DNA from: a virus
Taxonomy: Duplodnaviria > Heunggongvirae > Uroviricota > Caudoviricetes
DNA length: 64,000 bases
Reading direction: 5' to 3' (one strand)
Virus record (IMG/VR): IMGVR_UViG_3300043399_000676
The notes under the pieces were generated by a model. The model made no database searches. It saw nothing but the letters and a program-made list of their open reading frames with translations, and was not told the DNA's origin. Positions 260 through 46,611 of this stretch are shown here, piece by piece; the first letter of the stretch is position 1; each line of letters opens with the position of its first letter. Both the position numbers and the translations under genes were made by a program.

Positions 260-835
260 ATGGCTGTTTTAGCCTTAGATGTATCAGGTATTCCAAGACA
301 ATGGATCTCTTTCGATGAAGCGATCACTTATCATGCAAAAGATGCAGTAGCATGGAGCATGGGTGAAGTGGTTGCAAGATATCGCGGTGGTCTAAGCCGT
401 ATTAATGGTGGTCAAAGTGTGATCGAGACTACTAGCATCATTGCGGTTAAAGGTCATGGATTTGATCCAAATAGGTTCAGTCGTGTCTCTCTCACTAATC
501 GTACACTGTTCAAGCGTGACTTGAATATGTGTGCTTACTGTGGAAAGCAGTTTTCAGGCATTCACAGTCTTAGCCGTGATCACATTGTTCCTAAGAGTAA
601 AGGTGGTACTAACACTTGGATGAACGTTGTGACTGCATGTTGCGATTGCAATAGCAGGAAGAGTGACAAGACCTTGCAACAAGCTAGGATGGAGCTTCTG
701 TATCTTCCCTATGAGCCAAATCATTGGGAGAACTTGATTCTTCAGTCTCGCACAATTCTTGCGGATCAGATGGAATTCTTGATGGCAGGAGTACCTAAGC
801 ATTCTCGGGTACTCAAAAATCCTGAGTTTCATTGA
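260..835 (+). CDS. HNH homing endonuclease
   Basis: HNH motif CAYCGK…SRDHIVPKSKGG…NVVTACCDCNSRK; RBS AAGGAGAGG; free-standing gene next to the tRNA cluster. Confidence 0.75.
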   Translation: MAVLALDVSGIPRQWISFDEAITYHAKDAVAWSMGEVVARYRGGLSRINGGQSVIETTSIIAVKGHGFDPNRFSRVSLTNRTLFKRDLNMCAYCGKQFSGIHSLSRDHIVPKSKGGTNTWMNVVTACCDCNSRKSDKTLQQARMELLYLPYEPNHWENLILQSRTILADQMEFLMAGVPKHSRVLKNPEFH

Positions 836-1270: not shown

Positions 1271-1879
1271 ATGAAACCTACTTATTTATATGTTAAGACC
1301 CACAAAACAGGGTTGAAATATTTCGGTAAAACAGTTAAGGATCCCTTTGTATATAAGGGCTCCGGTGTTGTTTGGCTGCGCCATATCAAAAAATATGGTA
1401 ATGATGTTTCAACTGAAGTTTTAAACAACGGTTTACCATTTATTACTCCGGAGACACTGTCCGAAGCTGCGCTAAAGTTTAGCAAAGATAACAATATTGT
1501 TAAATCTGCTGAATGGGCTAATCTCATGAATGAAGATGGACTCACCGGTGGCGACTTCACACAAGGATACTCGGAATCCGAGTATAAAAAATTGTGCGAA
1601 CAAAACAGGCGAGCAAAGTCTCCAGAGACTATTGAAAAGCAAAGGCTAGCATCAATCATCAGTCAAAATAGACCTGATGTAAAGATGAAAAAGAGTTTGA
1701 ATGGTAAAATAGCGCAAAACAAACCTGAACAAAAACAACGCCTTAGAGATAAGGCAAAACAGTCAATTAAAGACGGCACGCATCCAAGTCAATGGACCTG
1801 GTCTTGTTCGTGTGGTGTATCAGGTAAAGGTAAATCTAACTTCAATAGATACCACAAGAATTGCGCTAAAAAAGTTTGA
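1271..1879 (+). CDS. GIY-YIG-like homing endonuclease (Seg-like) with NUMOD3-type repeats
   Basis: N-terminus TYLYVKTHKTGLKYFGKT resembles GIY…YIG; C-terminal repeated basic K/R…KSxE motifs like NUMOD3. Confidence 0.5.
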   Translation: MKPTYLYVKTHKTGLKYFGKTVKDPFVYKGSGVVWLRHIKKYGNDVSTEVLNNGLPFITPETLSEAALKFSKDNNIVKSAEWANLMNEDGLTGGDFTQGYSESEYKKLCEQNRRAKSPETIEKQRLASIISQNRPDVKMKKSLNGKIAQNKPEQKQRLRDKAKQSIKDGTHPSQWTWSCSCGVSGKGKSNFNRYHKNCAKKV

Positions 1880-2181
1880 AGGACGGCAATCCGTCAAAAG
1901 GTCTGATATTTCACCTCTGTGATCCGCTTTGCCGAGCGTCTCATAGAGAGTCCTAATAGTGTAGTGGTAGCACAACCGCCTATCGGCGGAAAGCGAGGCG
2001 TTCGATTCCCTCTCAGTGTTTATGAAACGTCAGCCTTGAGAACATGATAGACAAGATTGATTGTAGTAGCTCGCAAGCAACCGCAGGACTTGCGTTAAAA
2101 AGATGCGGAGTCAGGTGAGGTTAGCACTTTAGCTAATCCGCAGATAGTACTGACAGTAATTCGCTGCTATGATCAAACTTG

Positions 2182-2212
2182 TGCTTTACATCAAAGTAAG
2201 TAGGCAGTATAA
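2182..2212 (+). promoter_or_regulatory. putative promoter upstream of the tRNA cluster leader
   Basis: TTTACA-19-TATAAT; flanking AAGTAGGCAGTAtAATGCTT block conserved with 1176-1200. Confidence 0.4.
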
Positions 2213-2511
2213 TGCTTACATTGATTGATCGCTCTTTAAAAATTCGAAGTCATCTTAAAGCTAATTGCCGACGACAACGCCCAGAAGAATAGCTAGGCAC
2301 TATTCTCGTCCGTAGTCGCTAGCCTAGCGAGAGGTTCTGACCGGATATACGATACTCAACATGTTAGAGGGATTGAGTATCATGCGAAAGCACTATATGC
2401 CTAGTTGGTTGACATTATACTTATGCTATTTCCAATGTATACTTTAAACTGATACATTAATATATTATTCGACCTTGCAGTTAGCTTTAACGTGACTTTG
2501 TAACGAAAATT

Positions 2512-2596
2512 GCCCCGGTGGCGAAATAGGTAGACGCGAGGGACTTAAAATCCCTTCCTGAAAGGGGTGCCGGTTCGAGTCCGGCCCGGGGCACCA
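2512..2596 (+). tRNA. tRNA-Leu (anticodon TAA)
   Basis: Cloverleaf by hand: acceptor GCCCCGG/CCGGGGC, anticodon loop CTTAAAA, long variable arm, T-arm GCCGG-TTCGAGT-CCGGC, encoded CCA. Confidence 0.9.
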
Positions 2597-2692
2597 TATT
2601 GAAGCACATTACTTGCCCGTCCGTAAACGACGAGGAAAACTACTGAAGAAACAGGTTCGAATCCTGGGGACTGGTAGTGTGTTTCAATATGG
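2594..2692 (+). ncRNA. structured spacer element, copy 1 (terminal helix CCATATTGAAGCACA / TGTGTTTCAATATGG)
   Basis: Long terminal inverted repeat pairing with G·U wobbles only in RNA; internal T-arm-like CAGGTTCGAATCCTG; starts at the CCA of tRNA-Leu. Confidence 0.4.
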
Positions 2693-2878
2693 TAAAAGAG
2701 TAATTAACTTTTACTATTATCGGAAGTCATGACTCCGATGATCCGTGGTAGTTTAAAGGTAAAACGCAGCGAGGCGTCGGTTCGATTCCGACCTAGGGGG
2801 TAATGAACTCACTAGTAGCTTAATTGGAATAGAGCGCAGCGAGATAAGGGTATCGTAGTCCCTTCCACAATGGATCAA

Positions 2879-2967
2879 CTATATTGAAGCACATTCAAAT
2901 AGTTCAAGGTAACAATGCCCGAAAGGGAGACGAACTGAAACTGTTACCAGAGTGTGTTTCAATATGG
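2879..2967 (+). ncRNA. structured spacer element, copy 2
   Basis: Same terminal arms ATATTGAAGCACAT…GTGTGTTTCAATATGG; different interior. Confidence 0.4.
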
Positions 2968-3033
2968 TTGAAGGGTTTGTTTTAGGAACTGGACTTAATG
3001 TCACATTAGAGCATCACTCTAGACTTCAACCAT
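2966..3033 (+). ncRNA. hairpin RNA (GGTTGAAG…CTTCAACC) ending in CCA
   Basis: 8-bp perfect stem closing a ~50-nt interior; 3' end …CTTCAACCA abuts element copy 3. Confidence 0.3.
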
Positions 3034-3136
3034 CATATTGAAGCACATTAGAACTTCTGCGGGCAGACATTTCCCAGTAAGCCTTAAGCTGAAAAGAGAC
3101 GCAACAGTTCGACTCTGCTAGTGTGTTTCAATATGG
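3033..3136 (+). ncRNA. structured spacer element, copy 3
   Basis: Terminal arms CATATTGAAGCACAT…TAGTGTGTTTCAATATGG; internal CAGTTCGACTCTG T-arm-like hairpin. Confidence 0.4.
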
Positions 3137-3247
3137 TCAGTAAGGGATAGATCGGAGCGAAACAAGGATGCTAGTCACATTCGATGTCGTGAAGGAATCA
3201 CCTGAAGTCGGGGCTGAAAATTTCGTGACTGAAATGATGTCTCGACA

Positions 3248-3327
3248 CCATATTCAAACACATTAAAGGGCGCCCCTAGTACCAATAGGGAATCAAGGGC
3301 GAGATTGCTGAGTGTGTTTGAATATGG
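3248..3327 (+). ncRNA. structured spacer element, copy 4 (compensatory C/G swap in the helix)
   Basis: Arms CCATATTCAAACACAT…GTGTGTTTGAATATGG; the G→C change on the 5' arm is matched by C→G on the 3' arm relative to copies 1-3. Confidence 0.45.
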
Positions 3328-3338
3328 TAAAATAGTTG

Positions 3339-3368
3339 TTGACAACAAGGCTAGATTAGAATATAATC
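3339..3368 (+). promoter_or_regulatory. sigma70 promoter for the downstream tRNA block
   Basis: TTGACA-18-TATAAT immediately upstream of tRNA-Met. Confidence 0.55.
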
Positions 3369-3390
3369 TTCTTCGTTGTTAAAGATTTTC

Positions 3391-3467
3391 GCTTCTGTAG
3401 CTCAATTGGTCAGAGCAGAGGTCTCATAAACCTTTGGTTGGGGGTTCAAGTCCCTTCGGAAGCACCA
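3391..3467 (+). tRNA. tRNA-Met or tRNA-Ile2 (anticodon CAT)
   Basis: Acceptor GCTTCTG/CGGAAGC, D-arm GCTC…GAGC, anticodon loop CTCATAA, T-loop TTCAAGT, CCA encoded. Confidence 0.85.
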
Positions 3468-3539
3468 AGTTTTAGGATTCTTTCAGCAAACTTCAAACTT
3501 TTACTTTATGAAAAAGAAAAAGGAATCCTGTAATAACAT

Positions 3540-3613
3540 GCGGGTATCGTATAGTGGTAATACCTCAGCCTTCCAAGCTGAAGCGAGGAGTTCGATTCTC
3601 CTTACCCGCTCCA
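3540..3613 (+). tRNA. tRNA-Gly (anticodon TCC)
   Basis: Acceptor GCGGGTA/TACCCGC, anticodon loop CTTCCAA, T-arm AGGAG-TTCGATT-CTCCT, CCA. Confidence 0.9.
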
Positions 3614-3619
3614 TAATAC

Positions 3620-3711
3620 GGAGACATGGCCGAGTGGCCTAAGGCAGCAGGTTGCTAACCTGTCGAGTCATGCAAATGGCTCCGTGAGTTCGAATCTCAC
3701 TGTCTCCGCCA
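3620..3711 (+). tRNA. tRNA-Ser (anticodon GCT)
   Basis: Acceptor GGAGACA/TGTCTCC, anticodon loop TTGCTAA, long variable arm, T-arm GTGAG-TTCGAAT-CTCAC, CCA. Confidence 0.9.
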
Positions 3712-3717
3712 AGTTTT

Positions 3718-3794
3718 CTGCCCGTAGCTCAGTTGGATAGAGCAACGGATTTCTAATCCGTTGGTCGGGGGTTCGAATCCCTCCGGGCAGGCCA
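3718..3794 (+). tRNA. tRNA-Arg (anticodon TCT)
   Basis: Acceptor CTGCCCG/CGGGCAG, D-arm GCTC-AGTTGGATA-GAGC, anticodon loop TTTCTAA, CCA. Confidence 0.9.
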
Positions 3795-3834
3795 AAAATA
3801 AATCGCACTATTTTTAGTGCATAAATAAAACATT

Positions 3835-3909
3835 GCCTCAATAGCACAGCGGTAGTGCAACGGTTTTGTAAACCGTAGGTCGGGAGTTCGAATCTCTCTT
3901 GAGGCACCA
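3835..3909 (+). tRNA. tRNA-Thr (anticodon TGT)
   Basis: Acceptor GCCTCAA/TTGAGGC, anticodon loop TTTGTAA, T-loop TTCGAAT, CCA. Confidence 0.9.
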
Positions 3910-4068
3910 AACATTTCTACAAAGATGACTTCGAATTTTACAGAGAAATTTATCGCAATCGGTAGTATGTTACTATCCGCAGTTATAATTCTTTACATCT
4001 CATGCTGGCATTTCTGATAATCACATTATCACTCGTACTTTCAATCTACCTTTATTGGAAAGTAATCA

Positions 4069-4413
4069 ATGAACCAACTTCATGCACAGGTGACTGCAAC
4101 CAAGGAAGAAATTGTACTTGCCGCACTAAAACAACTTCTGACGATTCCCAGACCTAGAATTCTATGCAAGGACGGAGCATCGATTTCCGTCCAGGCTAAT
4201 TCTAACTGCTATTGCTCTCCTAGAAACGACACTGGTCCTTATACCCACGTAGAAGTGGGATATCCTTCACATCCTTTCCCTGAGGCTGTGACTTACAAAG
4301 AAGATTTTGATGCAGACGACTGCGACACGATCTTTGCTTATGTGCCCATTGAGCTAGTGGAAGCCTGGATATATTCACACGGTGGGTTCGCTCCCATAGA
4401 ATCTGAAAAATAA
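4069..4413 (+). CDS. hypothetical protein
   Basis: ORF with an upstream GGAAAG RBS, + strand, same direction as its neighbours. Confidence 0.45.
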   Translation: MNQLHAQVTATKEEIVLAALKQLLTIPRPRILCKDGASISVQANSNCYCSPRNDTGPYTHVEVGYPSHPFPEAVTYKEDFDADDCDTIFAYVPIELVEAWIYSHGGFAPIESEK

Positions 4414-16046: not shown

Positions 16047-16670
16047 ATGCGTATGAAGTACCCTCGTACCCCGCATCTTCCTTTTAGTAAAGGGAGGACG
16101 AGCGATGACAAAGTTCTGCCCTCCCTGTCTCACTTTGAGGGTCGTGAAATCGTTGTGACTATCAAGATGGATGGTGAGAACACCAGCATCTATCGTGATG
16201 GATTTCATGCTCGCAGCTTGGATAGTCGTCATCATCCTAGTCGAGACTGGCTTGCTCGCTTTCAGGCTACGATTGGACACGATATCCCCGAAGGATATCG
16301 TATCTGCGGTGAAAATGTGTATGCTCGTCATTCGGTTGCATACGACAATTTGCCTAGCTACTTTATGGGGTTTAGTGTCTGGGACGGCGAACGTGCCCTT
16401 AGCTGGGATGACACCCTTGAGTTCTTTGAACTTTTGGGGATCACTCCCGTCAAGGAACTGTATCGCGGTGTGTTCGATCAAAAAGTTCTGGAGCAACTGG
16501 CAAAAGACTTTGACACGGAAGCTAACGAAGGATTTGTGGTTCGTGTCGTTGATTCGTTTCAATACAAAGAATTTGGTAAGTCAGTAGCAAAGTGGGTTCG
16601 TTCTAATCATGTTCAGACTGATGAACATTGGATGCACTCTGCTATTGTCCCCAACGCACTTAAGGATTAA
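16047..16670 (+). CDS. Rnl2-like polynucleotide ligase/adenylyltransferase (nucleotidyltransferase domain only)
   Basis: KYPRTPHL…EIVVTIKMDGENTSI matches the T4 Rnl2 N-terminal and motif I (KxDG); 207 aa, no C-terminal domain. Confidence 0.5.
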   Translation: MRMKYPRTPHLPFSKGRTSDDKVLPSLSHFEGREIVVTIKMDGENTSIYRDGFHARSLDSRHHPSRDWLARFQATIGHDIPEGYRICGENVYARHSVAYDNLPSYFMGFSVWDGERALSWDDTLEFFELLGITPVKELYRGVFDQKVLEQLAKDFDTEANEGFVVRVVDSFQYKEFGKSVAKWVRSNHVQTDEHWMHSAIVPNALKD

Positions 16671-22626: not shown

Positions 22627-22715
22627 TTTGTTGCCCAACTTTATTGATCAATGCGATAGTAGGAGATATAATATAATCTATTGCTGTATGAAGTGAATTG
22701 AAAGACGGGCAAGAC

Positions 22716-22743
22716 TCGGGTTCGACTCCCGACAGGTCCACCA
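22716..22743 (+). other. orphan tRNA 3' half (T-arm, acceptor 3' strand, CCA)
   Basis: TCGGG-TTCGACT-CCCGA then CAGGTCC-A-CCA; no matching 5' acceptor/D/anticodon arms upstream. Confidence 0.35.
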
Positions 22744-22766
22744 TAAGGAGATTGAATAAATACTAG

Positions 22767-23225
22767 ATGCGTATAAATGAAATACTAATCGAATCCACGA
22801 CTGATGATTTAGTATCTGAATTCTTAAAGAGTATATCACCCAAAGAGTTGAGATACTATTCTCGTAGAGATAACTGTGGTCCTGCCGCACTCCATATGAT
22901 AAGTTGGGCCAGAGAAAAAGGGTTAGAATTGCAAAGATACGGCGGTTATTTTGTAGCAGATAATGTTGTATACGACAAAGCGGACTTTACAAAAGAAATG
23001 AAGCGTGAGTTTTTACAACAAGGACTAGATTTTAATGATCCTCAAGAAAGAAAAGAGTTCATTGAATCAAATCCAGAATATAGTGAAGAATGGAAAAAAG
23101 TCCCTCACTACTGGTTACAAGATAAATCGGGAAATGTATATGATCCAACAGGATACATTCAGTTTGTTAATACTGGATTAGCAAAGGATTTAAACGCATC
23201 AAGATATTTAGGCAAGCCAAGTTAG
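22767..23225 (+). CDS. hypothetical protein
   Basis: RBS AAGGAG. Confidence 0.45.
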   Translation: MRINEILIESTTDDLVSEFLKSISPKELRYYSRRDNCGPAALHMISWAREKGLELQRYGGYFVADNVVYDKADFTKEMKREFLQQGLDFNDPQERKEFIESNPEYSEEWKKVPHYWLQDKSGNVYDPTGYIQFVNTGLAKDLNASRYLGKPS

Positions 23226-23515
23226 TCTTCTTATGATGGGCCTGCAATGGTATCGATTGACGGACGAGTAGAGGAATGGACAGCACGATAGGCGATGATC
23301 GTTAATCAAGCAAACTAAAGTAAATGCAAAAGCAAATACTACAACTGGTGAGTACAAAGTCGAAGTAAGCAAGTCTTTCCGTTTCGGAAAAGTTGCTGCC
23401 AACGATGACCGTGCTTTACTAGCAGCCTAAACAGCAAGCTAGACCGGGGTGGAGACAACCACCTGGCAACAGAATCAATCAGAAAAGGTCCGAAAGGACC
23501 TTTTCTTCCATAAAT

Positions 23516-35161: not shown

Positions 35162-35773
35162 ATGCGGCTCACTATGCTAGGTTCGCTGCCTGAAAACCCG
35201 ATGATTGCATTGAGTGGCGGCGTGGATAGCATGGTAGTCGCGGACTTTATTTCTCGCACTAGGGAAGTTACTTGTCTGTTCTTTCACCACAAAACTGAGA
35301 CAAGTGAAAAGGCTCATTCCTTTCTAGTGGATTATTGTAAGAGTCGAGATTGGTACTTAATCGTTAAATACTTGTCTGAGGAGAAACCCAAACATGAAAG
35401 CTACGAAGAGTTCTGGCGTAATCAACGCTATTCCTGGTTTGATTCCTTTAGTAGAACTGTCGTTACCGGTCATCATCTGGATGATTGCGTAGAGACTTAT
35501 CTTTGGAGTACTATGCACGGTACCCCAAAGACGATCCCTTATCAACGAAACAATGTGGTTCGCCCTTTTCTACTGACGCCAAAGCAGGCAATGTATGACT
35601 GGGCAAAAAGACATAGTATTCCTTGGATCGAAGATGAAACGAACAAGGACACTTCCTACATGCGAAATTTTGTTAGGCATGAACTACTACCCAAAGCATT
35701 GCATGTAAACCCCGGACTTCAAAAAGTGGTTGCAAGAAAAGTAAAAGCCTGCTATAATGCTGCTCTTAATTAA
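35162..35773 (+). CDS. PP-loop ATP pyrophosphatase family protein (TilS/QueC-like N-type ATPase)
   Basis: SGGVDS PP-loop motif (ALSGGVDSMVV); 203 aa. Confidence 0.5.
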   Translation: MRLTMLGSLPENPMIALSGGVDSMVVADFISRTREVTCLFFHHKTETSEKAHSFLVDYCKSRDWYLIVKYLSEEKPKHESYEEFWRNQRYSWFDSFSRTVVTGHHLDDCVETYLWSTMHGTPKTIPYQRNNVVRPFLLTPKQAMYDWAKRHSIPWIEDETNKDTSYMRNFVRHELLPKALHVNPGLQKVVARKVKACYNAALN

Positions 35774-35789
35774 ATAATCAGGAAACAAA

Positions 35790-36821
35790 ATGCGTCAGCT
35801 TGCTACTATCCGAAAAATTGATTCTATCCTTCCCATCGAGGGCGCCGATGCAATTGAGTGCGCGGTGGTCGGTGGCTGGAAAGTTGTGATCAAAAAAGGT
35901 GAATTTCAACCTAACGACCTCGCAGTGTACGTCGAGATCGATTCATGGGTTCCTCACGAACTTGCTCCTTTTCTGTCGAAAGGTAAAGAGCCTCGGGAGT
36001 TCAATGGCGTCAAGGGTGAACGTCTTCGTACTGCAAAGCTCCGCGGGCAAATCTCGCAAGGTCTTTTGCTTCCTCTTTCTGTCTTCCCTCATTCCCTTGG
36101 ATTTGAGTACGCAACAGAAAAAACAATCGGCGAAGATGTTACTGAATGGTTGAAGATTCAAAAATGGGAAGCTCCTATCCCTGCTCAACTCGCGGGTGAT
36201 GTCGAAGGTCTGTTCCCTTCGTTCATTCCTAAGACCGATCAGGAGCGAATTCAGAACCTCGGGGCTGAGTACGATGCTTGGAAGCAAGAAGGTGATGAGT
36301 GGGAAGTCACCGAAAAACTTGATGGTTCTTCGATGACTGTGTTTCTCAAGGACGATCACTTTGGTGTCTGTTCTCGTAACTGGGAACTCCGTGAATCGGA
36401 AGGTAACTCTCTTTGGCGTGTTGCTCGTCAGTACGATATTGAAGGGATTTTGCGTTCCAAAGGACACTTCGCCCTGCAAGGTGAATTGATCGGTGAAGGT
36501 ATTCAAGGCAACCCCTACAAGATCAAAGGACAGGACTTCTTTGTCTTTGATATCTACGACATTGATCAAGGGCGTTATCTGTCTCCCTCGGAGCGTAAAG
36601 CGTTCCTTGAAGGCACTGCACTGAAGCACGTTCCGATTCTGAATGAAGCTGAATCGTTCAAGGATCATGTTGGTACTATCCATCATGTTCTTGGTTGGGC
36701 TGAAGGGAAAAGCGTTCTGAACGGCCAGACTGAACGTGAAGGATTGGTGTTCAAACGTCGAGACGGTGCTGTTTCGTTTAAGGCAATTTCCAACAAGTTT
36801 TTGCTTAAAACGGGCGGTTGA
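35790..36821 (+). CDS. RNA ligase with N-terminal accessory domain (NgrRnl/Rnl5-like nucleotidyltransferase)
   Basis: Motif I EKLDGSS at about residue 180, preceded by a ~170-aa N-domain; 343 aa. Confidence 0.55.
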   Translation: MRQLATIRKIDSILPIEGADAIECAVVGGWKVVIKKGEFQPNDLAVYVEIDSWVPHELAPFLSKGKEPREFNGVKGERLRTAKLRGQISQGLLLPLSVFPHSLGFEYATEKTIGEDVTEWLKIQKWEAPIPAQLAGDVEGLFPSFIPKTDQERIQNLGAEYDAWKQEGDEWEVTEKLDGSSMTVFLKDDHFGVCSRNWELRESEGNSLWRVARQYDIEGILRSKGHFALQGELIGEGIQGNPYKIKGQDFFVFDIYDIDQGRYLSPSERKAFLEGTALKHVPILNEAESFKDHVGTIHHVLGWAEGKSVLNGQTEREGLVFKRRDGAVSFKAISNKFLLKTGG

Positions 36822-39115: not shown

Positions 39116-39158
39116 ATGGAGTTTATGGTTGACATAAACTCCATTTCCATGTATAATG
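39116..39158 (+). promoter_or_regulatory. hairpin-embedded sigma70 promoter
   Basis: ATGGAGTTTATG…CATAAACTCCAT 12-bp inverted repeat flanking the -35 TTGACA; TATAAT at 39153. Confidence 0.45.
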
Positions 39159-39184
39159 TTTGTATTCTGAATAAGGAAATGCAA

Positions 39185-40075
39185 ATGGATAAGGACTCTC
39201 TGCGTCAATTCGTGCAAGACAACCCGAAGCTGGTTACGATGCGTGAAACCTCTACGCCTGGTCTTTTTGTGATCAAATATTCCAAGCGTGTTTTCTTCGA
39301 CAATCTTTGGAATGAATTCCTCGAAGAGTGTCGCGGCTTGATCGTTGACGCGGACTGGAACCCTGTTGTGCGTCCTTTCAAGAAGGTGTACAATTTCGGC
39401 GAGAACGGTGCTTCTTATGATCGTGATCGTATGGTGTATGTCGAGCGTAAAGTAAATGGCTTTATGGGTGCTGCGACCTATGTCTCGTCTGTTGATCAAG
39501 TTATCTACTCCACGACTGGTTCGCTGGATTCTGACTTCGCGGTGATCGTTCGTAAGTGGCTGTCTCCGTACGAACAGTTTTTCCGCTATCATCCGAATCG
39601 TACCTTTTTGTTTGAGGTGTGTGACAAGTCTGATCCGCATATCATCCCTGAAGTCGAAGGGGTGTATCTGATTGGTGCTCGTAATGCTGGAAAGTGGGAC
39701 AATGAAGTTCGTTGTGCGAACACTGATATGCTGGATTGGTATGCGAAATATATGGGCGGCGGAATTCTTCGTCCTTCGCACTCTGTTCAACGGTTTGGTG
39801 ATGTGGTTCAGCAAGTCAAGACTTGCTACCATGAAGGGTTCATTGTGTATCCGGTAGATTCTTGGGAGACTGATGCGGGACTGAAGATCAAGTCCAAGTA
39901 CTATCTGATTCAAAAGGCGTTGGCTCGTAAAAAGGATATCATGACCCTGAACAAGCAACTGCTGGATGAAGAATTCTATCCGCTCGTTGATCATCTCAAC
40001 GGAATGAAGGACGAGTTTAATGCTATGGACGAGCAGTCGCGTCTGGATTACATGCGTAAGTTTTTGCAAGCATGA
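39185..40075 (+). CDS. RNA ligase, Rnl1/Trl1-type (KxNG motif I)
   Basis: Motif I ERKVNGFMG (KxNG as in Trl1-type ligases); 296 aa; immediately downstream of pnk. Confidence 0.5.
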   Translation: MDKDSLRQFVQDNPKLVTMRETSTPGLFVIKYSKRVFFDNLWNEFLEECRGLIVDADWNPVVRPFKKVYNFGENGASYDRDRMVYVERKVNGFMGAATYVSSVDQVIYSTTGSLDSDFAVIVRKWLSPYEQFFRYHPNRTFLFEVCDKSDPHIIPEVEGVYLIGARNAGKWDNEVRCANTDMLDWYAKYMGGGILRPSHSVQRFGDVVQQVKTCYHEGFIVYPVDSWETDAGLKIKSKYYLIQKALARKKDIMTLNKQLLDEEFYPLVDHLNGMKDEFNAMDEQSRLDYMRKFLQA

Positions 40076-44544: not shown

Positions 44545-46611
44545 ATGCCATTAAACCCATCGATACCGACCCCAGCCGAAACAATAGTTAACATTAACGA
44601 AGATCCGGCGTTAGTTAAATTATACGCAAAACAAGCCGAAACGGTAGTAAACACAACTACAAAATCGTCGGCCAAATTTGCAGTTCCTGCACCAACTGTT
44701 ACAATGGTAACAAAACAGGTGTTTGTTAATAACATAGTTAATAATCAGGCAACAGGAAACATAAATGAACTTCAGTTCAAATCATCAACTGGATTCAGTA
44801 GTGATCCAGAGTTATCCTATAATCCAAACCTAAATGAGTTAACTGTGGAAGGTAATATTGAAGCAACTGCTATACTTACAGATAACTATTTTTATAGTAA
44901 TGGTGTTTCAATATTTTCAACATTAGGATCAGGAAACACTGGTGACATCACGTTCGATGCTACAACTATATCCGCACCTGATGAGAGTACTATTACTATA
45001 GAGAGTAAATTTGAAAATGTAGTTAAATCTAAGTTGGTGTTAAATCCAGAGTATGCTATAGCTAAACTCGAATCTAAATCTACGGACCAAAATACAACTT
45101 TCTTCAGCGGTGACGGATTCTGGGTTACTGCTAATTGGATTGTGAATCAGTATGGTCGAGGAGAGTTAGTATTTACAGGTTCTGAACAACTTTACAGCTT
45201 TTTAAATAGTTCACCTTCTTGGAACAGCGGAGAGAACAAGCGTTTTAGCTGGAATAGCGGCTCTCCTCTACAGTTTAGTGGGTGGGGATACGGTGGCGGA
45301 ACGCTGAATATAGATGTGGGAACTGAACTACTACCTCCTGTAGATCCTACTGAAATTACAGAAATTTCTTTTATTTGGGACAATGTATCTCGTGTGTCAG
45401 TTGACAGTAATGATTATCAAGAATTACAAATTCAAGCTCGCGGAATGAATATTGAAATTGACAGCACTAGCGACGTTAACATCGAAGCCGGTGACGATCT
45501 AAGACTAACAGGCAATGATGTTGTTAGTATTCGCAATAGATCCGTTTCTGACCCAATTACTATTGTTACAAACTACAACGGTGCATCTCCAACATGGAGT
45601 TTTGAAGCAGATGGTGCCTTAACATTACCCAACGGCAGCTTCATCAGAGAAACCGTAGTGACAGGGAATCCTACTATTGAATTAGAACCTGCCAATGCTG
45701 AAGGAGCTAGTCAGAAACTAGTCATCAAAGGTGGTGGCCCAGTTTTCTCTAACACAGAAAACGGTATCACTGTGGAAGTCTTTAATACCATAACTTATGC
45801 TCAAGGCGATACTGTCTATATGGGAGTTAGCACAGGACTAGCTCAAGGCACTACACTTTACTGGTGGATTGATAACTATAGCCCAGGAGCACAGTTTACT
45901 CCGGACAACGGAGAACTAACTATTAATGAGTTCGGTGGTGCATCATTTAACTTTGTAGTCAATGATGATACTATTCCATTCCGTGTTTATGTAGCAGATA
46001 CATTATACAACGCCTACATTAATAATCTCGGTGCGGTTAGCGTTGACATGAATGCAGGTGCGGTGGATAACAGCCTACACTTACATTTGACTACTGGTGA
46101 TTTAACTGCGACCAGCATTTTCTTAGGTACAGACGATCACAACGTTAGAACAAAGCCCAACGGTAATATAGAAGTTACAGTCTACAATTCCGAGGACGGA
46201 GTTTCAAAAGCTTGGAACTTCGGTAACGATGCCAAGTTGACATTCCCTTTACCAGTTAACAATGATATTCCATCCATAGAGTTCCCAGTTCCCAATGGCA
46301 GTGCTGGAATTGGTGTTAGTCCAAATGGATTTGATATTAGAGTCTTAGATAGCTACTGGACATTTAGCCCTCTACTTACAGGTGAAGGGACTGTTCCTGC
46401 TAAGATAACATTCCCGGACGGAACTCAACAAGTTACTGCTTGGGCAGGTGGTCGAGTAGTTAATATTCCAAATTCTAGTACAGGTGCTGCAGGTGACAAG
46501 TCAGGAGACATTTCATTTGATTCTACCTTCATGTATTACTGTGTAGCTGACTATACTGATGGATTATCAAATATATGGAAGCGTATAGCTTGGAGTGCTG
46601 ATACTTGGTAA
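44545..46611 (+). CDS. large fibre/adhesin-like structural protein
   Basis: 688 aa rich in S/T/N/G with repeated β-strand-like segments; C-terminal aromatic tail. Confidence 0.4.
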   Translation: MPLNPSIPTPAETIVNINEDPALVKLYAKQAETVVNTTTKSSAKFAVPAPTVTMVTKQVFVNNIVNNQATGNINELQFKSSTGFSSDPELSYNPNLNELTVEGNIEATAILTDNYFYSNGVSIFSTLGSGNTGDITFDATTISAPDESTITIESKFENVVKSKLVLNPEYAIAKLESKSTDQNTTFFSGDGFWVTANWIVNQYGRGELVFTGSEQLYSFLNSSPSWNSGENKRFSWNSGSPLQFSGWGYGGGTLNIDVGTELLPPVDPTEITEISFIWDNVSRVSVDSNDYQELQIQARGMNIEIDSTSDVNIEAGDDLRLTGNDVVSIRNRSVSDPITIVTNYNGASPTWSFEADGALTLPNGSFIRETVVTGNPTIELEPANAEGASQKLVIKGGGPVFSNTENGITVEVFNTITYAQGDTVYMGVSTGLAQGTTLYWWIDNYSPGAQFTPDNGELTINEFGGASFNFVVNDDTIPFRVYVADTLYNAYINNLGAVSVDMNAGAVDNSLHLHLTTGDLTATSIFLGTDDHNVRTKPNGNIEVTVYNSEDGVSKAWNFGNDAKLTFPLPVNNDIPSIEFPVPNGSAGIGVSPNGFDIRVLDSYWTFSPLLTGEGTVPAKITFPDGTQQVTAWAGGRVVNIPNSSTGAAGDKSGDISFDSTFMYYCVADYTDGLSNIWKRIAWSADTW

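What the first reader, a model, noticed from the sequence alone, without database searches (positions are those of the whole stretch)
2594..3327. Family of four structured spacer RNAs in the tRNA cluster with covarying terminal helices
Four elements (2594–2692, 2879–2967, 3033–3136, 3248–3327) each begin with (C)CATATTGAAGCACAT and end with (T)AGTGTGTTTCAATATGG. The arms pair only at the RNA level (G·U wobbles). Copy 4 carries a compensatory G↔C swap on both arms (TTCAAAC/GTTTGAA versus TTGAAGC/GTTTCAA), which is classic covariation for a functional RNA helix.

Interiors differ, but copies 1 and 3 contain T-arm-like hairpins (CAGGTTCGAATCCTG and CAGTTCGACTCTG). Each element directly follows a sequence ending in CCA (the tRNA-Leu CCA, …CTTCAACCA, …GACACCA).

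They could be tRNA-like small stable RNAs, analogous to the unexplained T4 RNA species in its tRNA region. They could be processing cassettes that define tRNA and small-RNA 3' ends, or decoys for host anticodon nucleases.
Basis: seen in the sequence. Interest (0 to 1): 0.7.

Follow-up and report, generated by a model that had tools for sequence, protein, structure and literature searches.

The report
Hairpin cassettes clamping phage tRNA ends
The four elements are real members of a large, apparently undescribed family of RNA hairpins in the tRNA gene arrays of uncultivated T4-like phages; a conserved 17-18 bp stem starts at the CCA end of the preceding tRNA and encloses a fast-changing "cargo" sequence, most likely acting as a processing and packaging module for tRNAs and small RNAs.

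Summary
A covariance model built from relatives finds exactly the four reported elements (2594-2692, 2879-2967, 3033-3136, 3248-3327, + strand, 42-53 bits) and nothing else convincing in 64 kb.

They are not tRNAs (ARAGORN, Rfam) and match no Rfam family. The same stem (CCAUAUUGAARCACAUU...AGUGUGYUUCAAUAUGG) occurs about 180 times in roughly 150 IMG/VR phage contigs. It is always co-oriented with tRNA genes and often shares the CCA of the upstream tRNA and the first GG of the downstream tRNA.

It was not found in 185,579 bacterial and archaeal genomes. The canonical arms matched no cultured phage record, and the model found nothing in the two cultured relatives whose arrays I scanned.

The stem shows heavy compensatory change and a sense-strand excess of G·U over A·C (270 vs 50). 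The enclosed sequence ranges from a 5-nt loop to about 120 nt and is unrelated even between close relatives. A minority of cargos are conserved tRNA-like RNAs; copy 1 is one.

Best reading (about 0.4): a co-transcribed processing stem that separates tRNAs and releases stem-closed small RNAs. The shared arms would also allow cargo exchange by recombination. The cleaving enzyme and the cargo function remain unproven.

The parts
2185..2213 (+). sigma-70-like promoter (TTTACA-17-TATAAT, 11/12) upstream of tRNA-Leu and the four hairpins
   Evidence: consensus match only, so transcription is inferred
2512..2596 (+). tRNA-Leu(UAA); its 3' CCA (2594-2596) forms the first three base pairs of element 1
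   Evidence: ARAGORN; Rfam tRNA 61.2 bits; sequence
2594..2692 (+). Element 1: 5' arm 2594-2611, cargo 2612-2674 (tRNA-like class with T-arm CAGGTTCGAATCCTG), 3' arm 2675-2692
   Evidence: R1 53.1 bits, E 7e-11; fold z = -5.2. The cargo class is conserved in L022, L080, L020 and L094, with covariation.
2742..2800 (+). tRNA-like unit lacking an anticodon arm, lying between elements 1 and 2
   Evidence: Rfam tRNA 34.8 bits (gathering score 29); not called by ARAGORN
2879..2967 (+). Element 2: arms CUAUAUUGAAGCACAUU / AGUGUGUUUCAAUAUGG; cargo of about 53 nt with no relative among the fetched loci
   Evidence: R1 43.6 bits; fold z = -6.6; singleton cargo cluster
2967..3031 (+). degenerate cloverleaf-like unit ending in CCA, preceding element 3
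   Evidence: fold: 7-bp acceptor-like stem GUUGAAG/CUUCAAC followed by CCA. The z-score is only -1.3, so this is weak.
3033..3136 (+). Element 3: arms UCAUAUUGAAGCACAUU / AGUGUGUUUCAAUAUGG; cargo of about 68 nt with a weak T-arm-like CAGTTCGACTCTG next to the 3' arm
   Evidence: R1 42.4 bits; fold z = -4.7
3248..3327 (+). Element 4: arms CCAUAUUCAAACACAUU / AGUGUGUUUGAAUAUGG (compensated C-G at position 8, A-U at position 11); cargo class shared with L086, L094 and L109
   Evidence: R1 49.0 bits; cargo alignment with covariation
3339..3367 (+). perfect sigma-70 consensus promoter (TTGACA-17-TATAAT) between element 4 and tRNA-Met
3391..3909 (+). downstream co-oriented tRNA array (Met, Gly, Ser, Arg, Thr)

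Best explanation
The four elements are sense-strand RNA hairpins of one family, which I call 'CCA-clamp hairpins'. They reside in the tRNA arrays of uncultivated T4-like and large phages.

Architecture:
- A conserved helix of 17-18 bp begins with the 3'-CCA of the preceding tRNA or tRNA-like RNA.
- It ends with a UGG that lies just before, or overlaps G1G2 of, the next tRNA.
- It encloses either nothing (a 5-nt loop) or a cargo of up to about 120 nt.

Proposed mechanism: the hairpin is transcribed with the tRNAs. The long perfect duplex acts as a punctuation and processing stem, analogous to the leader-trailer helices of rRNA operons. An endonuclease cuts it; a double-strand-specific RNase III-type enzyme is the simplest candidate. 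After the cut, the upstream tRNA keeps a short trailer that is trimmed back to CCA, the downstream tRNA keeps a leader that RNase P removes, and the cargo is released as a small RNA closed and protected by the remaining stem.

Because all elements carry near-identical arms, recombination within the arms can swap cargos between sites and between phages. That would explain identical stems around unrelated interiors.

Shown: existence, strand, pairing and covariation, anchoring on CCA, cargo turnover, distribution.

Inferred: transcription, cleavage, the enzyme, product stability, cargo function, and recombination in the arms.
For: Family and strand:
- The 5'-arm pattern alone retrieved 119+ IMG/VR loci. 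In 84 cases the complementary arm lay 59-152 nt downstream. Position 8 was always compensated: 80 G with C and 4 C with G.
- When the strand was inferred only from the two wobble positions, it equalled the strand of the nearest tRNA in 78 of 78 cases.
- With strand-symmetric detection, 195 distinct elements carry 270 G.U but only 50 A.C on the tRNA-sense strand. Thirty of the A.C are at one position in one subfamily.

Covariation:
- Across 93 distinct stems, 14 of 18 pairs show double changes, with 124 compensated cells against 20.5 in shuffles (0 of 500 shuffles reach the observed value). Slid controls give 28-51% paired against 98.7%.

Anchoring:
- 28 of 80 elements share NCCA with an upstream tRNA; the discriminator base varies (A, G or U).
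- In 10 of 80 the downstream tRNA starts inside the terminal GG, and about 13 more start within 4-13 nt.
- Minimal 39-nt versions, stem plus a 5-nt loop, exactly fill tRNA-tRNA spacers.

Independent sample:
- 80 arrays were fetched through an unrelated gene, giving 1574 co-oriented tRNAs and about 50 elements.
- CCA-anchored hairpins follow tRNA-Gln in 26 of 51 cases. The orthologous stems differ by compensated changes, for example CCAUAUUGAAGUACAUU versus CCAAACAGAAACAUACU.

Cargo:
- There are 54 unrelated classes among 73 elements.
- At the orthologous post-tRNA-Gln site, cargo identity is 0.47 against 0.45 for shuffles, even where tRNA-Gln is at least 95% identical.
- The same cargo class follows tRNA-Leu, Tyr, Gln or Lys in different phages.

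Setting in the window:
- The elements lie downstream of a promoter-like site, with no terminator-like site on the + strand.
- An 18-nt perfect inverted repeat brackets the whole cluster.
Against: - No expression or end-mapping data exist, and no cultured phage with the element was found.
- RNase III does not need a conserved sequence, yet the consensus stem is nearly identical in many divergent phages, and a U.G wobble at position 16 is kept in 122 of 195 elements. This hints at a sequence-specific partner.
- A 17-18 bp helix is at the short end for RNase III substrates.
- Some cargo classes are at least as conserved as the stem, so for them the cargo, not the punctuation, may be the selected function.
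- Only a minority of long tRNA spacers carry the hairpin: 53 of 332 spacers of 61-250 nt. It therefore cannot be a general requirement for array processing.
- No RNase III gene was seen among the roughly 36 window ORFs scanned, so a host enzyme would have to be assumed.
Confidence: 0.4

Rival explanations
1. A family of stable small RNAs built on a shared protein-binding handle, working like Y RNAs. The conserved stem, with its invariant U.G wobble, would be bound and not cut by a phage or host protein. The variable cargo would give each RNA its specificity; tRNA-like cargos would act as tRNA mimics or decoys.
For: - The stem is conserved in sequence beyond what pairing needs, including a conserved U16.G and a conserved A8.C subfamily.
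- Cargo classes c1 and c4 are conserved across phages and have their own covarying helices.
- T-arm-like motifs occur in 6 of 97 cargos against 0.085 expected. They always lie 1-16 nt from the 3' arm, where a tRNA T-arm sits relative to the acceptor strand.
- Several paralogues occur in tandem, as with Y RNA genes.
Against: - Rfam YrlA and Y_RNA models do not hit the elements.
- No TROVE/Ro, RtcB or other obvious partner was found among the scanned window ORFs.
- Empty elements with a 5-nt loop exist.
- Most cargos are singletons and turn over at the rate of random sequence, which is hard to reconcile with specific functions.
Confidence: 0.25
2. Primarily a DNA-level element. The inverted arms would be recombination or mobility sites (a cassette system comparable to PeSL modules or integron attC sites) that shuffle sequences in and out of tRNA arrays, and the RNA hairpin would be incidental.
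For: - Identical arms surround unrelated cargos within one genome (window copies 1-3).
- Cargo turns over rapidly at a fixed site.
- The same cargo appears after different tRNAs.
- Homing-endonuclease genes lie in and beside the arrays: the HNH gene at 260-835 has homologues inside the arrays of L001, L014 and L104.
Against: - Mismatches show a strong strand bias (270 G.U against 50 A.C on the tRNA-sense strand) and co-orientation is 78 of 78. A double-stranded DNA site should not show this.
- Helix length and pairing are maintained through many compensated changes.
- No target-site duplication, no conserved interior, and no transposase or integrase was seen.
- Arms show no within-genome homogenisation (p = 0.65).
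- No attC R-box, and perfect helices without extrahelical bases (sequence).
Confidence: 0.12
3. A regulatory clamp. By pairing the tRNA's CCA (and sometimes the next tRNA's G1G2), the hairpin would delay or gate maturation and aminoacylation of particular phage tRNAs until an endonuclease or helicase opens it.
For: - The CCA is always inside the helix.
- There is a preference for particular tRNAs: Gln 51%, Lys 44-47%, and Glu, Leu and Thr about 15%.
- From my own knowledge, not a tool result: 3' hairpins next to CCA are reported to inhibit RNase P processing in E. coli tRNA operons (Mohanty and Kushner).
Against: - Many family members follow non-tRNA sequences, including window copies 2-4.
- The idea gives no role for cargo.
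- It cannot be tested with these tools.
Confidence: 0.1
4. Neutral debris: decayed tRNA genes or spacer junk that happens to be flanked by a conserved leader and trailer, with no function of its own.
For: - Degenerate tRNA-like pieces are common around and inside the elements.
- Cargo evolves like random sequence.
Against: - The helix persists through many compensated substitutions and in about 180 instances across divergent phages.
- Empty versions keep the full stem.
Confidence: 0.05

Closest known systems
Leader-trailer processing helices of bacterial rRNA operons and phage T7 RNase III sites
   Same: A long perfect duplex formed by sequences flanking an embedded stable RNA within a polycistronic stable-RNA transcript; a plausible double-strand endonuclease target; its position defines the ends of neighbouring RNAs.
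   Different: Here the helix is only 17-18 bp, is conserved in sequence, starts exactly at a tRNA CCA, and is repeated many times per array. It may enclose nothing or unrelated cargos. Cleavage is not demonstrated.
Phage T4 species 1 and 2 RNAs (rnaC, rnaD)
   Same: Non-tRNA small RNAs encoded inside a T4-type tRNA cluster. rnaC has a canonical T-arm, as does window copy 1. Their function is still unknown.
   Different: No sequence similarity, and no CCA...UGG closing helix in their predicted folds. They are single genes, not a modular family.
Bacterial Y RNAs (YrlA family, Rfam RF02553)
   Same: About 100 nt long; the 5' and 3' ends form a conserved long stem; the interior is variable and may contain a tRNA-like domain with a T-arm; tandem paralogues occur; also known from phages.
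   Different: The YrlA and Y_RNA covariance models do not match. No Ro/Rsr gene was found nearby. The stem sequence is unrelated. Most interiors are not tRNA-like. The elements are fused to tRNA ends.
PeSL mobile regulatory cassettes of T4-type phages (from my own knowledge: Arbiol et al. 2010)
   Same: Short conserved repeats with a stem-loop in hyperplastic regions of T4-like genomes, flanking highly variable inserts and thought to mediate modular shuffling by recombination.
   Different: PeSLs are early promoter plus stem-loop units flanking protein ORFs. Here no promoter fits the arms (rejected from the sequence), the cargo is non-coding, and the strand-biased wobbles point to an RNA-level role.

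Membership tests
tRNA (RF00005) | Cloverleaf with anticodon arm, detected by ARAGORN or the Rfam tRNA model | tested here: not met
   ARAGORN tRNAs, none overlapping the elements. Rfam tRNA at E <= 10 hits 2742-2800 and 1950-2020 but none of the four elements.
Any Rfam 15 family | A covariance-model match | tested here: not met
   The only overlap with an element is a spurious mir-653 match (21 bits against a gathering score of 77) at 2875-2972.
Y RNA / YrlA | Match to RF02553 or RF00019 | tested here: not met
   YrlA gives only 19-21 bit partial hits, on tRNA T-arms at 3683-3743 and 2775-2835 and not on the elements.
Y RNA / YrlA | Terminal stem formed by the 5' and 3' ends, with a variable interior | tested here: met
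Y RNA / YrlA | tRNA-like domain (T-arm) in the interior | tested here: inconclusive
   Present and covarying in copy 1 and its class, weak in copy 3, and absent in copies 2 and 4. Found in 6 of 97 family members.
Y RNA / YrlA | Linked Ro/Rsr (TROVE) gene | tested here: not met
   No TROVE hit among about 30 Pfam-scanned window ORFs, including all those of 425 aa or more. The smaller ORFs were not all scanned.
T4 species 1/2 RNAs | Sequence or structural similarity to rnaC/rnaD | tested here: not met
   T4 region fetched and folded. The CCA...UGG 17-bp helix is absent and the sequences are different.
RNase III processing stem | Uninterrupted dsRNA of roughly two helical turns flanking stable RNAs | tested here: met
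   18-21 bp helices in the window; 17-24 bp in relatives
RNase III processing stem | Cleavage by RNase III in vivo or in vitro | not testable with these tools
   Needs RNA end-mapping or enzyme assays.
MITE / TIR transposon | Conserved interior, target-site duplication, near-identical copies | tested here: not met
   Interiors are unrelated (54 clusters among 73 elements). The flanks ACCA and UGGU are inverted, not direct.
Integron attC | R''/L''-L'/R' boxes (GTTRRRY), extrahelical bases, an integron integrase | tested here: not met
   No GTTRRRY box in the arms; perfect 17-bp helix; no integrase among the scanned ORFs.
CRISPR / TIGR arrays | Direct repeats separating spacers; associated Cas or Tas protein | tested here: not met
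   The arms are inverted, not direct, around each cargo. No such protein was seen.
Intrinsic terminator | G+C-rich stem followed by a U tract | tested here: not met
   No + strand terminator-like site in 1800-4100. The stems are A+U-rich and are followed by GGU.

The most novel reading that the evidence does not exclude
The hairpins are docking sites of a cassette system for small RNAs. A fixed RNA 'socket', welded to tRNA 3' ends, supplies transcription, processing and stability. Recombination in the near-universal arms lets phages capture and exchange arbitrary small-RNA cargos, including tRNA mimics. This would be an RNA-gene analogue of integron or PeSL cassette shuffling, with a dedicated, still unknown stem-recognising factor.
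Probability: 0.2. Interest if true: 0.85.

Novelty: new variant of a known kind. Interest (0 to 1): 0.66.

Why it matters
Phage tRNA arrays are usually annotated as tRNAs plus junk spacers. This family shows that a sizeable share of the spacers in a large clade of environmental T4-like phages is built from one conserved structural module that physically engages the tRNA CCA end.

If the stem is a processing signal, it reveals how long phage tRNA arrays are cut up, and how extra small RNAs are produced alongside tRNAs. It could also serve as a compact, portable RNA-release module for synthetic tRNA or guide-RNA arrays.

If the stem is a protein handle or a recombination socket, it points to an unknown RNA-binding factor, or to a new route for small-RNA gene exchange between phages.

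It also offers a concrete, testable relative of the 50-year-old puzzle of the T4 species 1 and 2 RNAs.

Tried and rejected
- Ordinary or relaxed tRNA calls: none on the elements.
- Known RNA families: none in Rfam 15, including YrlA.
- Literature: no paper holds the arm sequence, and keyword searches on tRNA arrays, hairpins and phage ncRNAs found no description. Supplements of the 10,006-csRNA catalogue are not held.
- Cultured phages: the canonical arms are absent from 50,697 phage records. R1 finds nothing in the tRNA arrays of the distant cultured relatives Stenotrophomonas phage DLP6 and Xanthomonas phage BUDD. The Ralstonia RsoM2USA region held no array.
- Bacterial and archaeal genomes: 91 single-arm hits, the number expected by chance, and none with a partner arm.
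- 'Flipped' reading, with arms flanking tRNA cassettes instead of cargos: rejected because single 5'-then-3' arm pairs occur alone in 10-kb arrays.
- Promoter in the 3' arm: rejected because the downstream sequences share no -10 element, and a tRNA often starts inside the arm.
- Antisense or guide function of the window cargos: no complementarity to the other 62 kb beyond chance, at most 13 nt.
- Genome-specific arms (co-evolution with a phage factor, or gene conversion): within-locus arm distance equals between-locus distance. This sample was ascertained on the canonical arm.
- YkuK/DUF458 RNase H-like nuclease as the dedicated partner. It is embedded in many of these arrays. It is also present in arrays of cultured phages that lack the hairpins and is absent from this 64-kb window. 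It is therefore not specific.
- T4 rnaC/rnaD homology: rejected.
- The array-bracketing 18-nt inverted repeat (2239/3922) was not found in other loci.
Full report
**1. What is in the window**

Between tRNA-Leu(UAA) (2512-2596) and tRNA-Met (3391) lie four hairpins on the + strand: 2594-2692, 2879-2967, 3033-3136 and 3248-3327.
- Each has the arms (C)CAUAUUGAAGCACAUU and AGUGUGUUUCAAUAUGG. Copy 4 has UUCAAAC / GUUUGAA instead.
- Independent repeat finding recovers both arm families and the inverted pairs.
- The arm motif is enriched over shuffles, 9 matches against 2.8 expected.
- Each element folds with an 18-21 bp closing helix, z = -4.7 to -6.6.
- ARAGORN calls none of them, and no Rfam family matches them even at E <= 10.
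- A covariance model built from relatives' stems (R1) recovers exactly these four intervals at 42-53 bits. Each scores 10-17 bits better on + than on -. The only other hit is one weak match, probably chance, at 44855-44914.

**2. It is a large family**

- In 84 cases the complementary 3' arm lay 59-152 nt downstream.
- Stem position 8 was compensated in all 84: 80 G-C and 4 C-G.
- R1 finds roughly 130 distinct elements in those loci.

A second sample is independent of the arm sequence. It consists of 80 tRNA arrays fetched through a gene embedded in such arrays. It contains 1574 co-oriented tRNAs and about 50 further elements.

In contrast:
- A scan of 185,579 bacterial and archaeal genomes gave only chance-level single arms and no paired element.
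- 50,697 cultured-phage records gave no match to the canonical arms.
- The tRNA arrays of the nearest cultured relatives I could find (Stenotrophomonas phage DLP6, Xanthomonas phage BUDD) contain none.

On the host phages:
- Proteins in the related loci include RegA, T4-type RNase H and dCMP deaminase. The window itself has rIIA, NrdA/B, thymidylate synthase and three RNA ligases.
- These genes, together with contig sizes of 160-400 kb, place the hosts of the element among T4-like and large myophages known only from metagenomes.

**3. Evidence that the helix is selected at the RNA level**

Co-orientation:
- When the strand is inferred only from the two wobble positions, it agrees with the nearest tRNA gene in 78 of 78 cases.

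Mismatch bias:
- A detection that treats G.T and A.C alike finds 195 distinct elements. On the tRNA-sense strand these carry 270 G.U against 50 A.C.
- Thirty of the A.C cases are one conserved A8.C in a single subfamily.

Covariation:
- On 93 distinct stems, 14 of 18 pairs show changes on both sides, with 124 compensated cells against 20.5 in shuffles. Slid registers pair only 28-51%.
- That set was ascertained by pairing, so the percentage paired is circular. The diversity of pair types and the pattern-only result in section 2 are not.
- At the orthologous site after tRNA-Gln, stems read CCAUAUUGAAGUACAUU, CCAAACAGAAACAUACU, CCAAAUAAAAGUACACU and CCAUAGAGAAGCACAUC, each with a matching 3' arm.

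Helix geometry:
- Helix length is constant at 17-18 bp. Conservation stops there.
- A U.G wobble at position 16 is kept in 122 of 195 elements.

**4. Relation to tRNAs**
- Twenty-eight of 80 elements share NCCA with the 3' end of an upstream tRNA. The discriminator base varies, so the CCA belongs to the tRNA.
- In ten, the downstream tRNA begins inside the terminal GG. About thirteen more begin within 4-13 nt.
- Where no tRNA is called upstream, the flank is often a small hairpin followed by NCCA.
- In the window, the units between the hairpins are degenerate tRNA-like sequences.
- Two 39-nt 'empty' elements, a stem plus a 5-nt loop, exactly fill tRNA-Lys/tRNA-Asp and tRNA-Lys/tRNA-His spacers.
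- In the independent sample, CCA-anchored hairpins follow tRNA-Gln in 26 of 51 cases, tRNA-Lys in 44-47%, and tRNA-Glu, Leu(UAG) and Thr in about 15%.
- Other stem families anchored on CCA exist after tRNA-Glu and tRNA-Lys.

**5. The cargo**
- Seventy-three unique elements fall into 54 unrelated interior clusters.
- At the post-tRNA-Gln site, cargo identity is 0.47 against 0.45 for shuffled sequences, even between phages whose tRNA-Gln is at least 95% identical. Stems stay at about 0.75 identity.
- Some classes are nevertheless conserved:
  - Window copy 1 belongs to a class found in four other contigs. It has an invariant T-loop, a covarying T-stem and a covarying second hairpin. In those contigs it follows tRNA-Tyr, Gln or Lys rather than Leu.
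  - Copy 4 belongs to a class shared with three contigs.
- Strict T-arm motifs occur in 6 of 97 cargos against 0.085 expected, always next to the 3' arm.
- The window cargos show no complementarity to the rest of the window beyond chance.

**6. Mechanism**

The region lies downstream of a promoter-like site (2185-2213). It has no + strand terminator-like site, and a perfect sigma-70 consensus follows copy 4. Co-transcription with tRNA-Leu is therefore plausible but not shown.

I favour a punctuation and processing stem, for these reasons:
- It is an uninterrupted duplex of about two helical turns, placed exactly between stable RNAs.
- It uses the tRNA's CCA and the next tRNA's leader.
- It can be empty.
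- It is maintained while its contents are replaced.

A blunt hairpin left on a tRNA 3' end would resist exonucleases, so an endonucleolytic cut in or at the stem is required. RNase III is the simplest candidate; this is an inference from established tRNA and rRNA processing. The released cargo would retain a protective closing helix.

The near-universal arms also provide homology for cargo exchange. This fits identical arms around unrelated cargos, and the same cargo appearing at different sites.

Against a plain RNase III site:
- The stem is conserved in sequence, including the fixed U.G and the A8.C variants.
- The helix is short for an RNase III substrate.
- Some cargos are conserved.
- The hairpin is absent from most long spacers.

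These points keep a Y-RNA-like 'handle' model alive. A purely DNA-level model is disfavoured by the strand bias.

An RNase H-like YkuK/DUF458 gene is strikingly embedded in many of these arrays. It also occurs in arrays without hairpins and is missing from this window, so it is not a specific partner.

**7. Comparison and novelty**
- The closest functional analogues are rRNA-operon processing helices.
- The closest contextual analogues are the T4 species 1 and 2 RNAs, which lack this architecture.
- The closest architectural analogue is the bacterial Y RNA, whose models do not match and whose Ro partner is absent.

Neither Rfam 15 nor the searchable literature describes the element.

I classify it as a new variant of a known kind: structured processing or small-RNA modules in stable-RNA operons. 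There is a roughly 20% chance that it is something more distinctive, namely a small-RNA cassette platform.

**8. Limits**
- All functional steps are inferred.
- Both homologue samples come from IMG/VR fragments.
- The first sample is biased toward the canonical arm.
- E-values from R1 are rough.
- The window's ORFs were not scanned exhaustively.

Noticed in passing
window 22682-23430: Two-piece (permuted) tmRNA gene: Rfam tmRNA_permuted, 65 bits against a gathering score of 47. ARAGORN missed it. A roughly 470-nt insertion between the acceptor piece (...UCCACCA) and the coding piece carries an ORF (22767-23225, 152 aa) with no Pfam or PHROG hit; a 32% homologue lies inside the tRNA array of L003.
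   Followed up: partly
window 2239-2256 and 3922-3939: Perfect 18-nt inverted repeat (AAAATTCGAAGTCATCTT / AAGATGACTTCGAATTTT) bracketing the entire tRNA/hairpin cluster. It starts about 25 nt after a promoter-like site and ends just after the last tRNA. It may be a leader-trailer helix for the whole transcript. It was not found in the other fetched loci.
   Followed up: partly
window 2742-2800 and about 2812-2877: Two tRNA-like units with D- and T-arms but no anticodon arm. Both have GCAGCGAG in its place. The first reaches the Rfam tRNA threshold (34.8 bits). The module 2676-2883 is conserved after an element in L017, L098 and L021.
   Followed up: partly
window 16047-16670, 35790-36821, 39116-40075, 35162-35773: Three RNA ligase genes (two PF09414, one Rnl1-like) and a TilS-like PP-loop ATPase lie within 25 kb of each other. 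This is an unusually heavy investment in RNA repair and tRNA modification next to the tRNA cluster.
   Followed up: no
L015 2976-3455, 20 other pattern-fetched loci, L213-L292; cultured phages DLP6 (L293 14992-15474) and BUDD (L294 19995-20468): An uncharacterised RNase H-like gene (PF04308, YkuK/DUF458) is embedded inside tRNA arrays. It is always co-oriented with the tRNAs and typically lies 14-30 nt after one of them. There are 250 IMG/VR stretches, and it also occurs in KVP40-like vibriophages. It is a candidate array-specific RNA-processing nuclease that is independent of the hairpins.
   Followed up: partly
L007 6638-6676, L292 7805-7889, L229 4013-4111, L242 3181-3277 and about 25 others: A subfamily, CCAUAUAAAAACACAUU...AGUGUGUUUCUAUAUGG, keeps an A.C opposition at stem position 8 on the sense strand. 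It is a conserved mismatch, or an A+.C wobble, at the same position that covaries elsewhere.
   Followed up: partly
L213-L292 (e.g. stems TACCATTAGTTTTG... after tRNA-Glu; CAGTTTTCTTTGGGG... after tRNA-Lys(UUU)): Further, sequence-unrelated families of long hairpins (100-200 nt) also start at the tRNA CCA. CCA-anchored trailer hairpins therefore seem to be a general feature of these arrays.
   Followed up: no
window 3339-3367: A 12/12 sigma-70 consensus promoter (TTGACA-17-TATAAT) lies directly upstream of tRNA-Met. This splits the tRNA region into at least two putative transcription units.
   Followed up: no
window 260-835 and 1271-1879: An HNH endonuclease gene and a neighbouring 202-aa ORF (no Pfam or PHROG hit) lie immediately upstream of the tRNA region. 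Homologues of the HNH gene (about 67% identity) sit inside the tRNA arrays of L001, L014 and L104.
   Followed up: partly
window 1950-2020: A sub-threshold tRNA-like sequence (Rfam tRNA 26.5 bits against 29) lies upstream of the promoter-like site. ARAGORN did not call it.
   Followed up: no
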